Below are positions 2 to 14,106 of a DNA stretch of 64,000 nt, in pieces (within the stretch, counting starts at the first letter, position 1; each line of letters starts with the position of its first letter). Made by a program: the position numbers and the translations under genes. The notes beneath the pieces are model-generated. The model worked only from the letters and a program-made list of their open reading frames with translations. It was not told where the DNA came from and made no database searches. Origin of the DNA: a virus; IMG/VR virus record IMGVR_UViG_3300032242_000468, positions 55,274 to 119,273 of that record; one strand, given 5' to 3'.

Positions 2-922
2 ACTAAAACTCCATGGAGCAGGTCTAAATGATGAATAAACAGCAGTACTTGTATTTGTTCTGTTAACTAATAGTGCTTTATGAGCAGTTAGTTTCATAAC
101 ATAATATGTTGCACCGGCTGTGTCTGTAGCAAGAACGTGCATGTTACCATGTGTAAGGGTATGTGCCGCACCTGTACCTGAACTTAAATGACAAACACCT
201 ACACCTTGTGAATTCACAATCAAGTAACGACGCGATGATTCTTGTTTAATAATGTCACCACCTGTTACAGCACTTGATCCTGTTGTTAGGTAAGATGTAA
301 ATTTAATCGCGTTCTGACGATTTGTTGTTAAATTAACTGTACCTACAGGTGCGCTTGGGGCTCCACCGGTAACAATAGGAGTTTCTGTTCCAACGTAACC
401 AGTACCTGGTGTAGTTACAGGAACTATACCATTCTTAACATGGAAGAATAAATCTACAAGGAATGTAGATGTTGTTCCAGGACCGCTTACTTTAGTAGCA
501 TTAATACCTTGTGTATATCCGTTTGTTCCACCTGTTGGGAAAACAGTAATACCAGATCCTGCATTAGTAAATGTGAAGATTGCGTTTGAACCTGCAATGT
601 TCCAAACTGTAAACTGTGCGCCACCTGTGGTAGGATATGTGAATATATCACCTACTGCTAGGTTACCGCCTCCACGAGATTTACCAGCACCAGTTGACAT
701 TGTAATTGCTTCGTATGTAACTGTGCCAGCAACTGCTTGTTGACCTTCAGCAATTGTTGGAGCAGGGGCTGTGATTGTTACCGGAGCAAGCATACTACCA
801 GCATTGCTTAAAAAATTTAGACTGGCAAGACCTTCTCCACCAACACCCGATAATTGATCATATAAATCAGTGTATGGGTAATTTGTATTACCGAAATATT
901 TCTTTTTAATTGGACGTCCCAT
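2..922 (-). CDS. Virion structural protein (3'-truncated by window edge)
   Basis: ATG at 922 with AAGGAGA RBS upstream. Reads MGRPIKKKYFGNTNYP..., Gly/Thr-rich, open to the window start. Lies directly downstream of the capsid gene and has its own TAAATA motif. Confidence 0.7.
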   Translation of the reverse strand, partial: MGRPIKKKYFGNTNYPYTDLYDQLSGVGGEGLASLNFLSNAGSMLAPVTITAPAPTIAEGQQAVAGTVTYEAITMSTGAGKSRGGGNLAVGDIFTYPTTGGAQFTVWNIAGSNAIFTFTNAGSGITVFPTGGTNGYTQGINATKVSGPGTTSTFLVDLFFHVKNGIVPVTTPGTGYVGTETPIVTGGAPSAPVGTVNLTTNRQNAIKFTSYLTTGSSAVTGGDIIKQESSRRYLIVNSQGVGVCHLSSGTGAAHTLTHGNMHVLATDTAGATYYVMKLTAHKALLVNRTNTSTAVYSSFRPAPWSFS

Positions 923-1006
923 TTTGTTTCTCCTTAATGTTGTGAGCGTTCTAGGCTCTACGCGGATGGTACCGCATAAACTCAGTTAAAATGATAACCG
1001 GCTTGT

Positions 1007-11476: not shown

Positions 11477-11695
11477 TTGTCAATGACTATGGAAGACATA
11501 GTCGAACTCGTTCAGCGCATGGAAGTTGAGACAAAAGCCATCAAACAAGAACTCTATAAATTCTGTTGGTACATGCGAGGTAGTCTATCATTTACCGAAG
11601 CCTATGATCTAGAAATAGGCGATAGAGAAATACTGGGAAAAATAATAGAAGACAACTTAGACACAACTAAGAAATCTGGACTTCCGTTCTTTTAA
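11477..11695 (+). CDS. gp51-like small ORF / frameshift extension of upstream chaperone
   Basis: LCWYMRG-type motif (FCWYMRGSLSFTEAY). In the -1 frame relative to the upstream ORF, with no clear RBS. Confidence 0.7.
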   Translation: MSMTMEDIVELVQRMEVETKAIKQELYKFCWYMRGSLSFTEAYDLEIGDREILGKIIEDNLDTTKKSGLPFF

Positions 11696-12894
11696 ATCAT
11701 TCCTCTTAGGAATCTACTGTAGTATTGGATTCCCTCTTTTGCATATTCTTGGTTAGAATCAAACTTACTTGCGGCTCGTGCTTTTTGACTTGCCGCAAGA
11801 TTGGATCTTAGTTTAGCCGTTTGATCTTGGCTAGATGTAGTAGGATTAGTAGTATTTGGAACAACATTAACTGCTTTAGAATTTAATGGCTTAGACACAT
11901 TTTTCATCGTGTTAGGATCAAAGCGTGTAGTAACACCGTAATTAGCCTTACCGTTACCAATTTGATTATTATAACTTCCGCCTGCTCGTTGAAGTGGAAT
12001 CATTTTTCCTGTTTCATCATCATACGTTCCACCTGCATCTTGATGTGCTTTCATTTCTGCGTCAGTATAATTAGGATTTCTTTTAGATTTTTGTTGTGTA
12101 GGGGCCGGTAAAGATAGAGGATTAGTAGTTGACTTTGTCTTAGGTTCAACATCTGTAACATCTGCGTTAGGTTTAGCAGATGTAGATTGTTTATTATTTG
12201 GGTTGTTAGGGTCGGCTTTGTGAACTAGGCCTGTTGATGTTTGATTTATTTGTCCGTTTGTGCTTGACGGAGTGCTTACATTATCAGCAGGAGTCTCTGG
12301 AGCCGATGCTTGCTGAGTTTGATTTGGTTGAGCCTGAGATGCTTGCTGAGTTTGATTTGGTTGAGCCTGAGATGCTTGCTGAGTTTGATTTGGTTGAGCC
12401 TGAGATGCTTGCTGAGTTTGATTTGGTTGAGCCTGAGATGCTTGCTGACCAGAAGTAGCGTTTCCTGTGCTTTGGTTAGGTTGCGTTGTCTGTTGAGAAG
12501 GTGCTGATTGAGAAGTCTGTTTTTGTTGGCGCTCAATTTCGTCTGCTCTTGCCATTAAATCTCTAGCCTGTTTTCTCAAGGTAGCAGGATCTTCTGCACT
12601 CTGTCCTGCTACAGCCTGTGCTTGACCTGCCGCTGATTGTTGTCCTGAGGGTTGATATTGAGTACCGCCTTGTTGTGGTGTCTCATCAGGACCTCCAGCA
12701 ATAGTATCAGATGCTCTGTTATATCCTTTTTTAATAGATCGAGCAATACCTGCTGGTACACCTGCTACTGCACCTATTCCTTGTCCTACTGCTCCAATAC
12801 CTTTACCTATAGCGGCACCTACCTGTCGAGTTTTATCCCATATAGGTCCTTCTTCTAGATCAAAATCTTCAGATATAACTTCATGTAGCCTCAT
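11692..12894 (-). CDS. Low-complexity Q/T/S-rich protein, probable virion internal protein
   Basis: TAAGGA RBS and a full TATAAATA upstream. N-terminus MRLHEVISED; contains an internal 11-aa tandem repeat. Confidence 0.65.
   Translation of the reverse strand: MRLHEVISEDFDLEEGPIWDKTRQVGAAIGKGIGAVGQGIGAVAGVPAGIARSIKKGYNRASDTIAGGPDETPQQGGTQYQPSGQQSAAGQAQAVAGQSAEDPATLRKQARDLMARADEIERQQKQTSQSAPSQQTTQPNQSTGNATSGQQASQAQPNQTQQASQAQPNQTQQASQAQPNQTQQASQAQPNQTQQASAPETPADNVSTPSSTNGQINQTSTGLVHKADPNNPNNKQSTSAKPNADVTDVEPKTKSTTNPLSLPAPTQQKSKRNPNYTDAEMKAHQDAGGTYDDETGKMIPLQRAGGSYNNQIGNGKANYGVTTRFDPNTMKNVSKPLNSKAVNVVPNTTNPTTSSQDQTAKLRSNLAASQKARAASKFDSNQEYAKEGIQYYSRFLRGMI
12305..12448. repeat. 33-bp perfect tandem repeat (~4.4 copies), coding QQASQAQPNQT
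   Basis: Unit GATGCTTGCTGAGTTTGATTTGGTTGAGCCTGA at 12305, 12338, 12371 and 12404, with a partial copy at 12437. Confidence 0.95.
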
Positions 12895-12914
12895 ACAAAT
12901 TCCTTAAGATGATT

Positions 12915-12922
12915 TATTTATA
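12915..12922 (-). promoter_or_regulatory. Full T4 late promoter consensus TATAAATA
   Basis: TATTTATA on plus, about 20 nt upstream of the ATG at 12894. Confidence 0.75.
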
Positions 12923-12925
12923 TTC

Positions 12926-12947
12926 AAAAAGTGAACTACGTTCACTT
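12926..12947 (-). terminator. Intrinsic terminator closing the structured non-coding element
   Basis: Minus strand AAGTGAAC-GTA-GTTCACTTTTT. Confidence 0.6.
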
Positions 12948-13352
12948 GCTCTTTCGTTTCACTCAGAGCATTTTTCTCATCGAAGATGTTTAGCATTATC
13001 CAGATTGTTCAGCCACACTTTGCCCAGAAAGGGCAAAATGAAAACATTATCCGAGTTGAACAATGCCACTTAGTAGTAGAGCGTTACAGAGGCGGTCATC
13101 CTGTACCTCGAGCTCAGTCTTTATATGACGGCGGTTTACATAAATCTACTAACATTTACGCAAACGTAGGGGTTTTCTCCCTTCTTTTTACCTTTTTTCT
13201 TATCTTCTAACAATCAAACAGCAAGGATTTTGCCATCTTGGTCCTGTGAAGGATACTGATTGAGAACTCTTTACGGCGAGAGATTTCCGTCCCTGCGACC
13301 CGAGGTCCAGGTTTAGGGCGCACGATGTTCGCTTGCGCTTGCCTTTTACCGT
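12926..13352 (-). ncRNA. Unclassified ~430-nt structured RNA candidate (or structured origin)
   Basis: Longest gene-free gap in the window, more GC-rich than other gaps, with many nested inverted repeats. G-U pairs form on the minus strand, and the element ends in a terminator. Confidence 0.6.
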
Positions 13353-13778
13353 TTAAGATTTTAAAATATGTGAGCCATGGACACGGACTTGTATATGCCC
13401 GTTATAATATTCATCTGTTTCTAATACTTTGCGGTCGAATTGTTCACGGGCCTCAATGTACGATGTTTCTGCTTTACTTTTACAATAATGTAGTATTTGT
13501 CTTGTGAAATTTTCTTTGCCTAACTTCTCAACATCTGCTGTTAAGTTAGGGCTTGAGCCATAATATTCTTGCCAATCTGAGTCAATTTTGCTACGAATCT
13601 TCTTCTTTTTCTTTGTGCCGTTCTTTAATTTTACAGTTTTATAAGTTGTTTTACTAAATTTTGCTAACTTTTTACCTACGTACTTACGTCCTGTTAAGTT
13701 ATTTGTAATAAGATAAACAAAGCCTACACAGTCTTCAGGGAGCATCTCCACTATCTGGTTCTGGTAAGTCCATGTCAT
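13353..13778 (-). CDS. GIY-YIG endonuclease (T4 EndoII/Seg-like)
   Basis: GFVYLITN...RKYVGKK...YYGSS...E...YYN motif set. Confidence 0.8.
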   Translation of the reverse strand: MTWTYQNQIVEMLPEDCVGFVYLITNNLTGRKYVGKKLAKFSKTTYKTVKLKNGTKKKKKIRSKIDSDWQEYYGSSPNLTADVEKLGKENFTRQILHYCKSKAETSYIEAREQFDRKVLETDEYYNGHIQVRVHGSHILKS

Positions 13779-14106
13779 CCTCTTTTTGTACCTTTTTAAA
13801 CACCTGTACGTACTTTAATCTTTCAAGTTCGTTCACTTTCTTTGACCAACGACGCTTGTCCACTTCTGTGATCAACGTTCTTATTTCACCAACATCTTTG
13901 TACAATACGGTGCACTGCTTCTTAAGAGCGCTGACACTGAGTTGTAATTCGTAAGCAGTTTCTTTATTTGGATATTCCATGTAGGCTACTTCGGCATTAT
14001 GAATACGAAGTACCATAGCAAGGTAATCTGAATAGTGATCACTATGCTTGTTTAGCCTATCCTCTATATGAGGGGTGCTATTCTTGAAATAATTAGCCCT
14101 CGACAT
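13735..14106 (-). CDS. Hypothetical protein
   Basis: ORF fills the gap between gp46 and the nuclease gene. Start placed at ATG 14106 to minimise overlap. Confidence 0.5.
   Translation of the reverse strand: MSRANYFKNSTPHIEDRLNKHSDHYSDYLAMVLRIHNAEVAYMEYPNKETAYELQLSVSALKKQCTVLYKDVGEIRTLITEVDKRRWSKKVNELERLKYVQVFKKVQKEDDMDLPEPDSGDAP

What the first reader, a model, noticed from the sequence alone, without database searches (positions are those of the whole stretch)
12926..13352. ~430-nt densely structured non-coding element fused to the 3' end of a GIY-YIG nuclease gene
Seen: this is the longest gene-free gap in an otherwise packed window. It starts immediately after the nuclease stop codon (13353) and ends in a terminator (AAGUGAAC-GUA-GUUCACUUUUU). 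On the minus strand it has many helices: GCGCA..UGCGC (13318-13338), GACC-UCG-GGUC, CAAUCA..UGAUUG enclosing UCCU-UCAC-AGGA (13211-13262), GGG-AGAAAA-CCC, a 12-bp GUUUGCGUAAAU/AUUUAUGUAAAC stem with two G-U pairs (13134-13165), GAGG..CCUC overlapping an alternative UACAG..CUGUA pairing (13085-13109), AUUGUUCA..UGAACAAU enclosing UUUGCCC-UUUCU-GGGCAAA (13003-13064), and GCUC..GAGC. It also has a duplicated GGAUAAUG (12994, 13045) and a purine-rich linker (13179-13207). The G-U pairs would be A-C mismatches on the plus strand, which favours a minus-strand RNA. I do not recognise it as tRNA, tmRNA, RNase P or a group I/II intron. Inference: an undescribed large phage ncRNA co-transcribed with gp47-gp46-nuclease. 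It could be an RNA partner or guide of the GIY-YIG protein (which has a Lys-rich loop, KLKNGTKKKKKIRSK), or an R-loop/primer RNA marking a replication origin.
Basis: partly seen in the sequence, partly recalled or inferred. Interest (0 to 1): 0.85.

Follow-up and report, generated by a model that had tools for sequence, protein, structure and literature searches.

The report
Full-length twin-box Polynucleobacter-1 phage RNA
The gene-free stretch behind a small nuclease gene of this uncultured freshwater T4-like phage encodes a real, knotted non-coding RNA of about 425 bases whose first third is a catalogued but unexplained motif, whose rest is uncatalogued and carries one 7-letter word twice, and whose job is still unknown.

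Summary
Window 12926-13352 (minus strand) is a real structured RNA. Ninety-two base pairs in 20 helices, three of them pseudoknots, are kept across 89 distinct homologues (95.1% paired against 78.9% shuffled; covariation 0.482 against 0.186).

It is not wholly undescribed. 13208-13343 is a full-length Rfam Polynucleobacter-1 RNA (RF01718, 107.6 bits, cut-off 37). The other ~280 nt match no Rfam family.

They hold two identical single-stranded 7-mers 51 nt apart. The word differs between homologues but is the same in both copies in 85 of 89.

The nuclease is a neighbour, not a partner:
- Identical nuclease proteins sit beside different RNA types and boxes.
- Nuclease orthologues occur in cultured phages without the RNA.
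- Full-length RNAs with their own twin boxes lie in 26 Burkholderiales-type loci without the nuclease, beside a DUF6641 gene and integrases.

No origin signal was seen.

My best guess is a stand-alone scaffold RNA whose twin boxes are read by a bivalent partner. The partner was not found.

This scan has reported the same RNA before on other DNA (106 findings in at least 95 genomes).

The parts
13353..13778 (-). Small SegE-type GIY-YIG nuclease gene (141 aa). It is the upstream neighbour and not part of the RNA.
   Evidence: Pfam PF19835, 113.8 bits; phrog_447. Codon-periodic conservation stops at its stop codon.
13208..13343 (-). Domain 1: full-length Polynucleobacter-1 RNA (Rfam RF01718).
   Evidence: 107.6 bits against a cut-off of 37, model positions 1-141 of 141. 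Helices covary.
13330..13343 (-). Pseudoknot 1: 13343-13341 pairs with 13332-13330, inside the loop of hairpin 13338-34/13322-18.
   Evidence: 91.8% of cells paired; middle pair GC 74, AU 12 (helix 1).
13185..13207 (-). A-rich single-stranded linker between domains 1 and 2.
   Evidence: Conserved A-rich columns in alignment A1.
13134..13165 (-). 12-bp hairpin of domain 2. Its loop forms pseudoknot 2.
   Evidence: 12 of 12 pairs show changes on both sides (helix 12).
13070..13152 (-). Pseudoknot 2: loop 13152-13146 pairs with 13076-13070.
   Evidence: 7 of 7 pairs show changes on both sides; 95.8% paired (helix 13).
13078..13129 (-). Core of domain 2: helix 13116-12/13082-78, hairpin 13109-05/13093-89, and pseudoknot 3 (13129-25 with loop 13099-95).
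   Evidence: Helices 14-16: 98.4, 93.9 and 96.6% paired.
13046..13052 (-). Twin box, copy 1 (GGAUAAU), unpaired in the consensus structure.
   Evidence: Identical to copy 2 in 85 of 89 homologues, with at least 10 word variants.
13018..13038 (-). Conserved hairpin between the two boxes.
   Evidence: 95.5% paired; 4 of 8 pairs show changes on both sides (helix 17).
12995..13001 (-). Twin box, copy 2 (GGAUAAU), 51 nt after copy 1.
   Evidence: The distance is 47-59 nt in other phages, with no multiple-of-three rule.
12948..12969 (-). 3' module hairpin with a conserved internal GAGCG..AGCGAAA-type motif.
   Evidence: helices 18-19. The motif is also present in bacterial copies.
12926..12947 (-). 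Terminal 8-bp hairpin with a 3-nt loop and a short U run. Presumed 3' end of the RNA.
   Evidence: 8 of 8 pairs show changes on both sides (helix 20). A near-identical hairpin sequence occurs in bacterial copies. The U run is not conserved.
12915..12922 (-). TATAAATA, conserved just after the RNA. It is a T4-type late-promoter-like box for the next gene. The consensus is recalled, not tested.
   Evidence: Conserved island after the hairpin. Seen before the next ATG in many loci.

Best explanation
Shown: this is the full-length form of the orphan Polynucleobacter-1 RNA, about 425 nt on the minus strand (13352 to about 12926). It has an Rfam-known 5' domain, an uncatalogued core with three pseudoknots in all, two identical unpaired 7-nt boxes about 50 nt apart, and a conserved 3' hairpin pair.

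Inferred: it is made as the tail of the early gp47-gp46-nuclease transcript and ends at the last hairpin. The next gene then starts from its own late-type promoter.

Inferred mechanism, which I put at about 0.3-0.35 on its own: the RNA acts by itself in trans as a folded scaffold. The scaffold holds out the two boxes so that one bivalent partner can read both. That partner could be two copies of one short nucleic-acid sequence or a dimeric protein. Each lineage sets its own word, and both copies must match.

The RNA is the only thing found to be shared by the virulent phages and the integrase-bearing bacterial islands. The partner is therefore more likely a cell-side or self-contained one than the neighbouring nuclease.

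The confidence given (0.45) is for the statement as a whole. That it is a real RNA of this family and architecture I put at about 0.9.
For: - Rfam RF01718 at 13208-13343, 107.6 bits, full model.
- The whole 430 nt is conserved at 67-79% identity in the syntenic gp47-gp46-nuclease-RNA block of the viral loci found with a domain-1 pattern.
- There is no codon periodicity after the nuclease stop.
- Structure: 92 pairs in 20 helices, 95.1% paired against 78.9% in shuffles. Seventy-three pairs show double changes. The covariation score is 0.482 against 0.186 (0 of 500 shuffles reach it), and slid controls give 0.05-0.07.
- Twin boxes are identical in 85 of 89 homologues; 3 of the 4 exceptions are the divergent outliers L051, L100 and L103.
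- In an independent set of 67 nuclease-ascertained loci with at least 480 nt downstream, 57 carry an identical pair.
- In 21 bacterial copies with enough sequence, 11 are identical and 6 differ at one edge position.
- No complement of the box lies inside the RNA that prefers its own box over foreign boxes: 0.74 own sites against 0.85 foreign.
- Only the RNA is shared. tblastn of all ORFs of 50 aa or more from 14 bacterial loci against the phage genome and 120 phage loci gave no shared protein. The two hits were a translation of the RNA itself and one unrelated ORF.
- Contigs of relatives occur in four lake RNA libraries.
Against: - No partner was found, so the mechanism is inferred from anatomy alone.
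- The box or its complement is not enriched in the 119-kb phage record or in 85 loci. Own complement was found 50 times against 39.9 +/- 6.1 for swapped boxes, and the apparent cluster is one clade's conserved coding sequence.
- The variable box positions mix freely: positions 1, 2, 5 and 7 occur in many combinations. This fits a co-evolving partner encoded nearby better than a fixed cell component, yet no such nearby gene was seen.
- Transcription, RNA ends and stability are not shown. The RNA-library contigs may hold DNA, and the near-identical one (X1) has only 26 letters on the RNA side of the junction.
- In the phages the RNA always follows the nuclease gene (67 of 67 nuclease-ascertained loci have at least its 3' module within about 1.3 kb). 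A tie to that gene is therefore not excluded. These loci are one lineage, with 74-88% identical proteins.
Confidence: 0.45

Rival explanations
1. Decoy or antidote RNA. The two boxes are twin recognition or cleavage sites for one sequence-specific RNA-binding enzyme, for example a toxin-type endoribonuclease of a defence system. Islands would carry the RNA as antitoxin or regulator, and phages would carry it as a counter-measure.
For: - The same RNA family sits in virulent phages and in small integrase-bearing islands.
- The word changes fast and is lineage-specific, while the scaffold stays conserved.
- About 50-nt repeat units with identical words recall repeat-type RNA antitoxins. That resemblance is recalled, not tested.
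Against: - There are only two repeats, set in a large conserved scaffold.
- No toxin-like gene is shared or adjacent.
- The PADLOC defence models match neither the DUF6641 protein nor the small recombinase.
- DUF6641 is divergently transcribed, not downstream.
Confidence: 0.15
2. Cis-acting element. It would be a 3'-UTR stabiliser or terminator of the early operon, or a riboswitch-like leader for the following gene, as Weinberg et al. guessed for the 141-nt motif.
For: - The table in Weinberg 2010 marks the motif as a probable cis-regulator (passages read only).
- It sits at the end of an operon, about 9 nt after a stop codon, and ends in a hairpin.
- The 5' domain is exchangeable while the 3' core is kept, like a sensor with a platform.
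Against: - The next gene has its own conserved late-type promoter after the hairpin, and in many loci it is replaced by a convergent gene.
- In bacteria the RNA stands alone with a divergent neighbour.
- Three pseudoknots and about 430-650 nt are far more than a terminator or stabiliser needs.
Confidence: 0.12
3. The boxes read each other. The two identical words would form an intramolecular parallel-stranded stretch of like-with-like base pairs. Alternatively they hold copies of the RNA together, as part of a self-contained fold, multimer or ribozyme.
For: - Identity covariation occurs at every variable position with no third covarying column. This is what like-with-like pairing would give.
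- It needs only two matched changes, as in an ordinary helix.
- Other large phage-linked RNAs form multimers (recalled).
Against: - Parallel like-with-like duplexes are almost unknown in natural RNAs.
- The flanks next to the boxes differ consistently between the two copies.
- Nothing was tested structurally.
Confidence: 0.08
4. One reading: RNA partner or guide of the GIY-YIG nuclease.
For: - Gene and RNA are adjacent in all phage loci examined.
- A protein that stays constant while the word changes is what a guide RNA would show.
Against: - L292 and L293 encode identical nuclease proteins but carry different RNA architectures and boxes. Twenty-one further pairs at least 95% identical differ in box.
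- Orthologues are found in 426 GenBank phage records. In 3 of 3 whole records examined (54%, 42% and 42% identical proteins) there is no RF01718, and there is no RNA module next to the gene. Two of the three records have annotated genes abutting it.
- Twenty-six bacterial loci have the RNA and no nuclease within the fetched DNA.
Confidence: 0.07
5. One reading: origin or primer RNA (R-loop). A DNA-level variant would have the twin words act as iterons or recombination cores.
For: - It lies beside recombination and replication genes.
- Directly repeated identical words resemble iterons, or the identical crossover cores that tyrosine recombinases need (recalled).
- A small tyrosine recombinase gene lies 0.8-1.5 kb downstream on the same strand in 9 of 16 bacterial loci with enough sequence.
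Against: - There is no GC-skew turn at 13 kb; the minimum is near 18-20 kb, where gene orientation changes.
- G-U tolerant covariation along the whole length points to RNA structure.
- The truncated bacterial copies L132 and L207 break elsewhere, not at the boxes.
- No recombinase was found in the phage DNA searched.
Confidence: 0.07

Closest known systems
Polynucleobacter-1 RNA motif (Rfam RF01718; Weinberg et al. 2010, Genome Biol 11:R31, PMC2864571; table passage read)
   Same: Residues 13208-13343 match the whole 141-position model at 107.6 bits. The habitat is the same (fresh water, Burkholderiales) and so is the set of helices.
   Different: The catalogued motif is only the first third. 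The full RNA goes on for about 280 nt here, and about 450-500 nt in bacteria. The extension holds two more pseudoknots, the twin boxes and a conserved 3' module. In 22 of 67 nuclease-ascertained loci, domain 1 is not found by my profile and a different 5' sequence stands in its place, while at least the 3' module of the core is kept. Four such loci tested have no Rfam match.
Large ornate RNAs of phages and prophages (GOLLD, ROOL, HEARO, OLE; recalled)
   Same: Hundreds of nucleotides long, many conserved helices and pseudoknots, carried by phages and mobile elements, function unknown or only recently found.
   Different: None of these Rfam families matches the window at their gathering scores, nor the region at E up to 10. 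None is known to me to carry matched variable twin words.
Tandem sensors that read one partner twice (tandem T-box leaders, tandem riboswitches; recalled)
   Same: A conserved scaffold with a short specificity element that differs between lineages but is the same in both tandem units.
   Different: No T-box or riboswitch model matches. No gene to be regulated follows in a fixed way. The full 7-nt word does not fit the complement of a tRNA anticodon loop (my reading).
Repeat-type RNA antitoxins of type III toxin-antitoxin systems (ToxI, CptI; recalled)
   Same: Direct repeats of about 36-50 nt with an identical recognition word, found in mobile elements and copied by phages.
   Different: Here only a 7-nt word and a short upstream motif are repeated, inside a large non-repetitive fold. 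No toxin gene lies downstream.

Membership tests
Polynucleobacter-1 RNA (RF01718) | Score at or above Rfam's gathering cut-off over the full model | tested here: met
   107.6 bits against 37, model 1-141/141, E 2.3e-22. One copy in the 119-kb record.
Polynucleobacter-1 RNA (RF01718) | Consensus helices kept with compensatory changes | tested here: met
   Helices 2-10 (domain 1) are 82.6-100% paired, most with changes on both sides.
Polynucleobacter-1 RNA (RF01718) | Cis-regulatory leader of a downstream gene (the original guess) | tested here: not met
   About 280 nt of further structured RNA, a 3' hairpin and a separate promoter-like box lie between the motif and the next ATG. The next gene is not constant.
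RNA-guided or RNA-partnered nuclease system | Protein and RNA always occur together | tested here: not met
   The RNA occurs without the nuclease in 26 bacterial loci. The nuclease occurs without the RNA in 3 of 3 cultured-phage records.
RNA-guided or RNA-partnered nuclease system | The protein recognises one RNA scaffold | tested here: not met
   An identical protein sits beside two different RNA architectures (L292, L293).
Group I/II intron, tmRNA, RNase P, tRNA | Match to the family's covariance model or to ARAGORN | tested here: not met
   No such match at E up to 10 in 12600-13800. ARAGORN finds 0 genes in the window.
Programmed translational bypass (T4 gene 60 type; recalled) | Matched take-off and landing codons in one reading frame, with an ORF running into the first | tested here: not met
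   Box-to-box distance is 47-59 nt with remainders 0/1/2 in 30/59/44 cases. No start codon lies in frame upstream (read). The bacterial words hold no stop codon.
cow-rumen-2 RNA (RF02947) | Score at the gathering cut-off, or a recurring weak match in homologues | tested here: not met
   22.8 bits against 66 here. 0 of 15 other loci at E up to 5.
Replication origin | Turn of cumulative GC skew at the site | tested here: not met
   The minimum lies near 18-20 kb. This is a weak test for a T4-like phage.

The most novel reading that the evidence does not exclude
The twin boxes are the programmable part of a new class of mobile-element RNA. A conserved, knotted scaffold presents the same freely re-writable 7-nt word twice, in order to bring together or act on two copies of one short nucleic-acid sequence. 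Examples would be two DNA sites sharing a core, or two identical RNAs. Both virulent T4-like phages and small integrase-bearing bacterial islands would use it, with exchangeable 5' domains as adaptors.
Probability: 0.12. Interest if true: 0.9.

Novelty: new variant of a known kind. Interest (0 to 1): 0.62.

Why it matters
Large RNAs with many conserved pseudoknots have nearly always turned out to be ribozymes or cores of important RNA-protein machines. This one is abundant in freshwater phage metagenomes. It also occurs in isolate genomes such as Limnohabitans sp. Bal53, so it can be studied at the bench.

The catalogued 141-nt motif has misled annotation, because it is only one of at least three exchangeable 5' domains of a larger RNA. 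The rule that two separated words must be identical while being free to change is unusual for RNA. It gives a direct experimental handle: change one box, then both.

Tried and rejected
- Reader of the boxes. I looked for the box or its complement in the phage record, in 85 loci against swapped-box controls and inside the RNA. There was no specific signal. The cluster at +577 to +652 is a conserved opposite-strand coding stretch of one clade.
- Gene between gp46 and the nuclease as reader. It is not one family: small ORFs, a 336-aa protein, or gp46 itself.
- Downstream 400-aa protein against the bacterial 134-aa protein. There is no similarity, E 12.
- Translational bypass: rejected.
- Helix AUUGUUCA/UGAACAAU and the UACAG/CUGUA alternative: not conserved.
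- cow-rumen-2 similarity: not recurrent.
- GC skew gives no origin signal.
- DUF6641. It is absent from the phage record (though the control rang nowhere). It has no match in GenBank phages, no solved relative (best E 0.43), no PADLOC match and no paper. The Atlas returned only its own family.
- blastn of the region against GenBank phages gave no match.
- RNA libraries. Four lake runs hold contigs of relatives. Parts without cover (12300-13036 and most of 13171-13304) say nothing. The contigs show neither strand, ends nor level.
- In print. 'Polynucleobacter-1' occurs in one paper of the library and 'cow-rumen-2' only in the Rfam 15 paper.
- My first structure string mis-nested pseudoknot 3. 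One search is the corrected count.
- The window coordinates printed are 1 too high after 13346. They were corrected.

Full report
**What is there.** The window is part of a 119,273-nt IMG/VR virus record that CheckV rates 34% complete. On the minus strand lie a gp47-like phosphoesterase gene, a gp46-like SMC/Rad50 gene, a 142-aa ORF and a 141-aa SegE-type GIY-YIG gene. The stretch in question, 13352 to 12926, follows. After it comes a 400-aa ORF that starts at 12894. By the proxy of ORFs of 80 aa or more, 12895-13352 is the longest open-frame-free stretch of the window. The minus strand folds better than its shuffles (z -2.80). The plus strand does so less (z -1.42).

**The Rfam hit.** A scan of the whole window at Rfam's own thresholds places a complete Polynucleobacter-1 RNA (RF01718) at 13208-13343 on the minus strand, with 107.6 bits against a cut-off of 37 (alignment). 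The family comes from Weinberg et al. 2010. I read only the table passage: probable RNA, probable cis-regulator, riboswitch unknown, Burkholderiales and fresh water or estuary. It is the only paper in the library with that name. Nothing else in Rfam matches the remaining ~280 nt. A weak cow-rumen-2 hit (22.8 bits against 66) does not recur in 15 other loci.

**Conservation.** blastn shows that nearly all of them carry the same block, gp47-gp46-(variable ORF)-nuclease-RNA. The whole 430 nt, not just the Rfam part, is conserved at 67-79% identity. Of 121 oriented segments, window included, 99 were complete and 89 distinct. In their alignment the codon-periodic pattern ends at the nuclease stop. 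Blocks of invariant bases alternate with variable stems up to the last hairpin. A conserved TATAAATA follows, and similarity then collapses.

**Structure.** I derived helices from a G-test with APC correction and counted them on alignment A1 with the counting tool.
- There are 92 pairs in 20 helices. Of all cells, 95.1% are paired, against 78.9% in shuffles.
- Seventy-three pairs show changes on both sides.
- The covariation score is 0.482 against 0.186, reached by 0 of 500 shuffles. Slid controls give 0.05-0.07.
- Three pseudoknots are supported: 13343-41 with 13332-30; the loop of the 12-bp hairpin (13152-46) with 13076-70; and 13129-25 with the loop 13099-95.
- Caveat: the sequences are related, and the structure was derived from the same alignment. 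The shuffle control therefore overstates significance. The slid control and the many pair types are the stronger argument.

**Twin boxes.** Two 7-mers, at 13052-13046 and 13001-12995, are unpaired in the consensus.
- They are identical to each other in 85 of 89 sequences. Three of the four exceptions are the divergent outliers.
- The word itself takes at least ten forms.
- A short upstream GUGRC motif is also matched between the two units (0.91 identity).
- The rule holds in a second set found through the nuclease protein (57 of 67 by a strict expression, with a further word).
- It also holds in bacterial copies with quite different words (11 of 21 identical, 6 with one edge mismatch, 4 none or truncated).
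- The spacing is 47-59 nt with no multiple-of-three rule, which rules out a coding or bypass reading.
- No column elsewhere in the RNA covaries with the boxes, and no own-box-specific complement exists in the RNA or in the flanking 5-15 kb.

**The nuclease.** Three tests separate it from the RNA.
1. L292 and L293 encode identical nuclease proteins next to different RNA architectures and boxes. Twenty-one more pairs at least 95% identical differ in box.
2. The protein family is widespread in T4-like phages, with 426 GenBank records. The whole records of Melnitz-3, ACP17 and V45v66 have no RF01718 (0 of 3). The same search finds the RNA in the window's own record. No profile hit for any RNA module lies near the gene in these three. 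In Melnitz-3 and ACP17 annotated genes abut it.
3. Twenty-six Burkholderiales-type loci carry the RNA without the nuclease.

Adjacency in the phages is nevertheless constant. All 67 nuclease-ascertained loci with at least 600 nt downstream have at least the 3' module, but they form one lineage.

**Modularity.** In those 67 loci, 45 have domains 1-3. Fourteen keep domains 2-3 behind a different 5' sequence. Eight match only the 3' module by profile and carry a third architecture with its own twin boxes. Rfam matches nothing in the four such loci tested: L223, L240, L242 and L284. Domain 1 is thus one of several exchangeable heads on a common twin-box core.

**Bacterial copies.** They include isolates (two loci in Limnohabitans sp. 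Bal53). They extend to about 600-650 nt and end in almost the same terminal hairpin. A DUF6641 gene (PF20346, phrog_31551) is divergently upstream in 25 of 26 loci. A 190-aa tyrosine recombinase lies 0.8-1.5 kb downstream on the same strand in 9 of 16 loci with enough sequence. Larger integrases and tRNA genes are nearby. No protein of these loci is found in the phage DNA.

**Expression.** Four lake metatranscriptome runs hold contigs of relatives. One 669-nt contig carries parts of the nuclease gene and of domain 2. This shows presence in RNA libraries, not transcription, ends or strand.

**Reading.** The safest statement is that this is the full-length form of an orphan RNA family, independent of the nuclease, with unknown function. 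My committed mechanism is a scaffold that presents two identical words to a bivalent reader, at about one in three. The rivals and their odds are listed above.

**Earlier scan reports.** Reports on other genomes reached the same anatomy and the same doubt about the nuclease. I reached both conclusions from my own calls before reading them. New here, as far as those summaries show, are the bacterial context counts, the identical-nuclease pair, the three-way head exchange and the rejected bypass reading.

Noticed in passing
window 920-996 (-): A second Rfam match: freshwater-2 RNA (RF02980), 58 bits against a cut-off of 49.9, annotated as cis-regulatory.
   Followed up: no
window 11692-12894 (-), promoter-like box 12915-12922: The variable, Gln-rich 400-aa protein after the RNA has a conserved TATAAATA before it. 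Its N-terminus (MRLHEVISE...) recurs as M-[RK]-[IV]-x-[DE]-[IL] in many loci. It resembles the T4 capsid-targeting sequence of internal head proteins, which I recall from memory. No Pfam or PHROG match was found.
   Followed up: partly
L239, L240, L287, L288 (between nuclease gene and RNA): An extra small ORF with a Cys-rich end (...CNTC...) is inserted between the nuclease gene and the RNA in some relatives. In others (L225, L232/L233) a longer gene is inserted, and the RNA lies about 1.2 kb further on.
   Followed up: no
L223, L284, L288 upstream of the nuclease gene: In some relatives a 336-aa Cys-rich protein (CxxxCxxC near the N-terminus, radical-SAM-like by eye) replaces the small ORF between gp46 and the nuclease.
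   Followed up: no
L132 and L207 (bacterial loci): Truncated copies of the RNA. L132 keeps the upstream genes and about 185 nt of RNA. L207 keeps only about 240 nt of RNA with unrelated flanks. These may be scars of element turnover.
   Followed up: partly
window 13353-13778 (-): The small GIY-YIG family is labelled 'NAD synthetase' in PHROGs and in many GenBank phage records. That label looks like an annotation error carried along, because Pfam sees only the SegE GIY-YIG domain.
   Followed up: no
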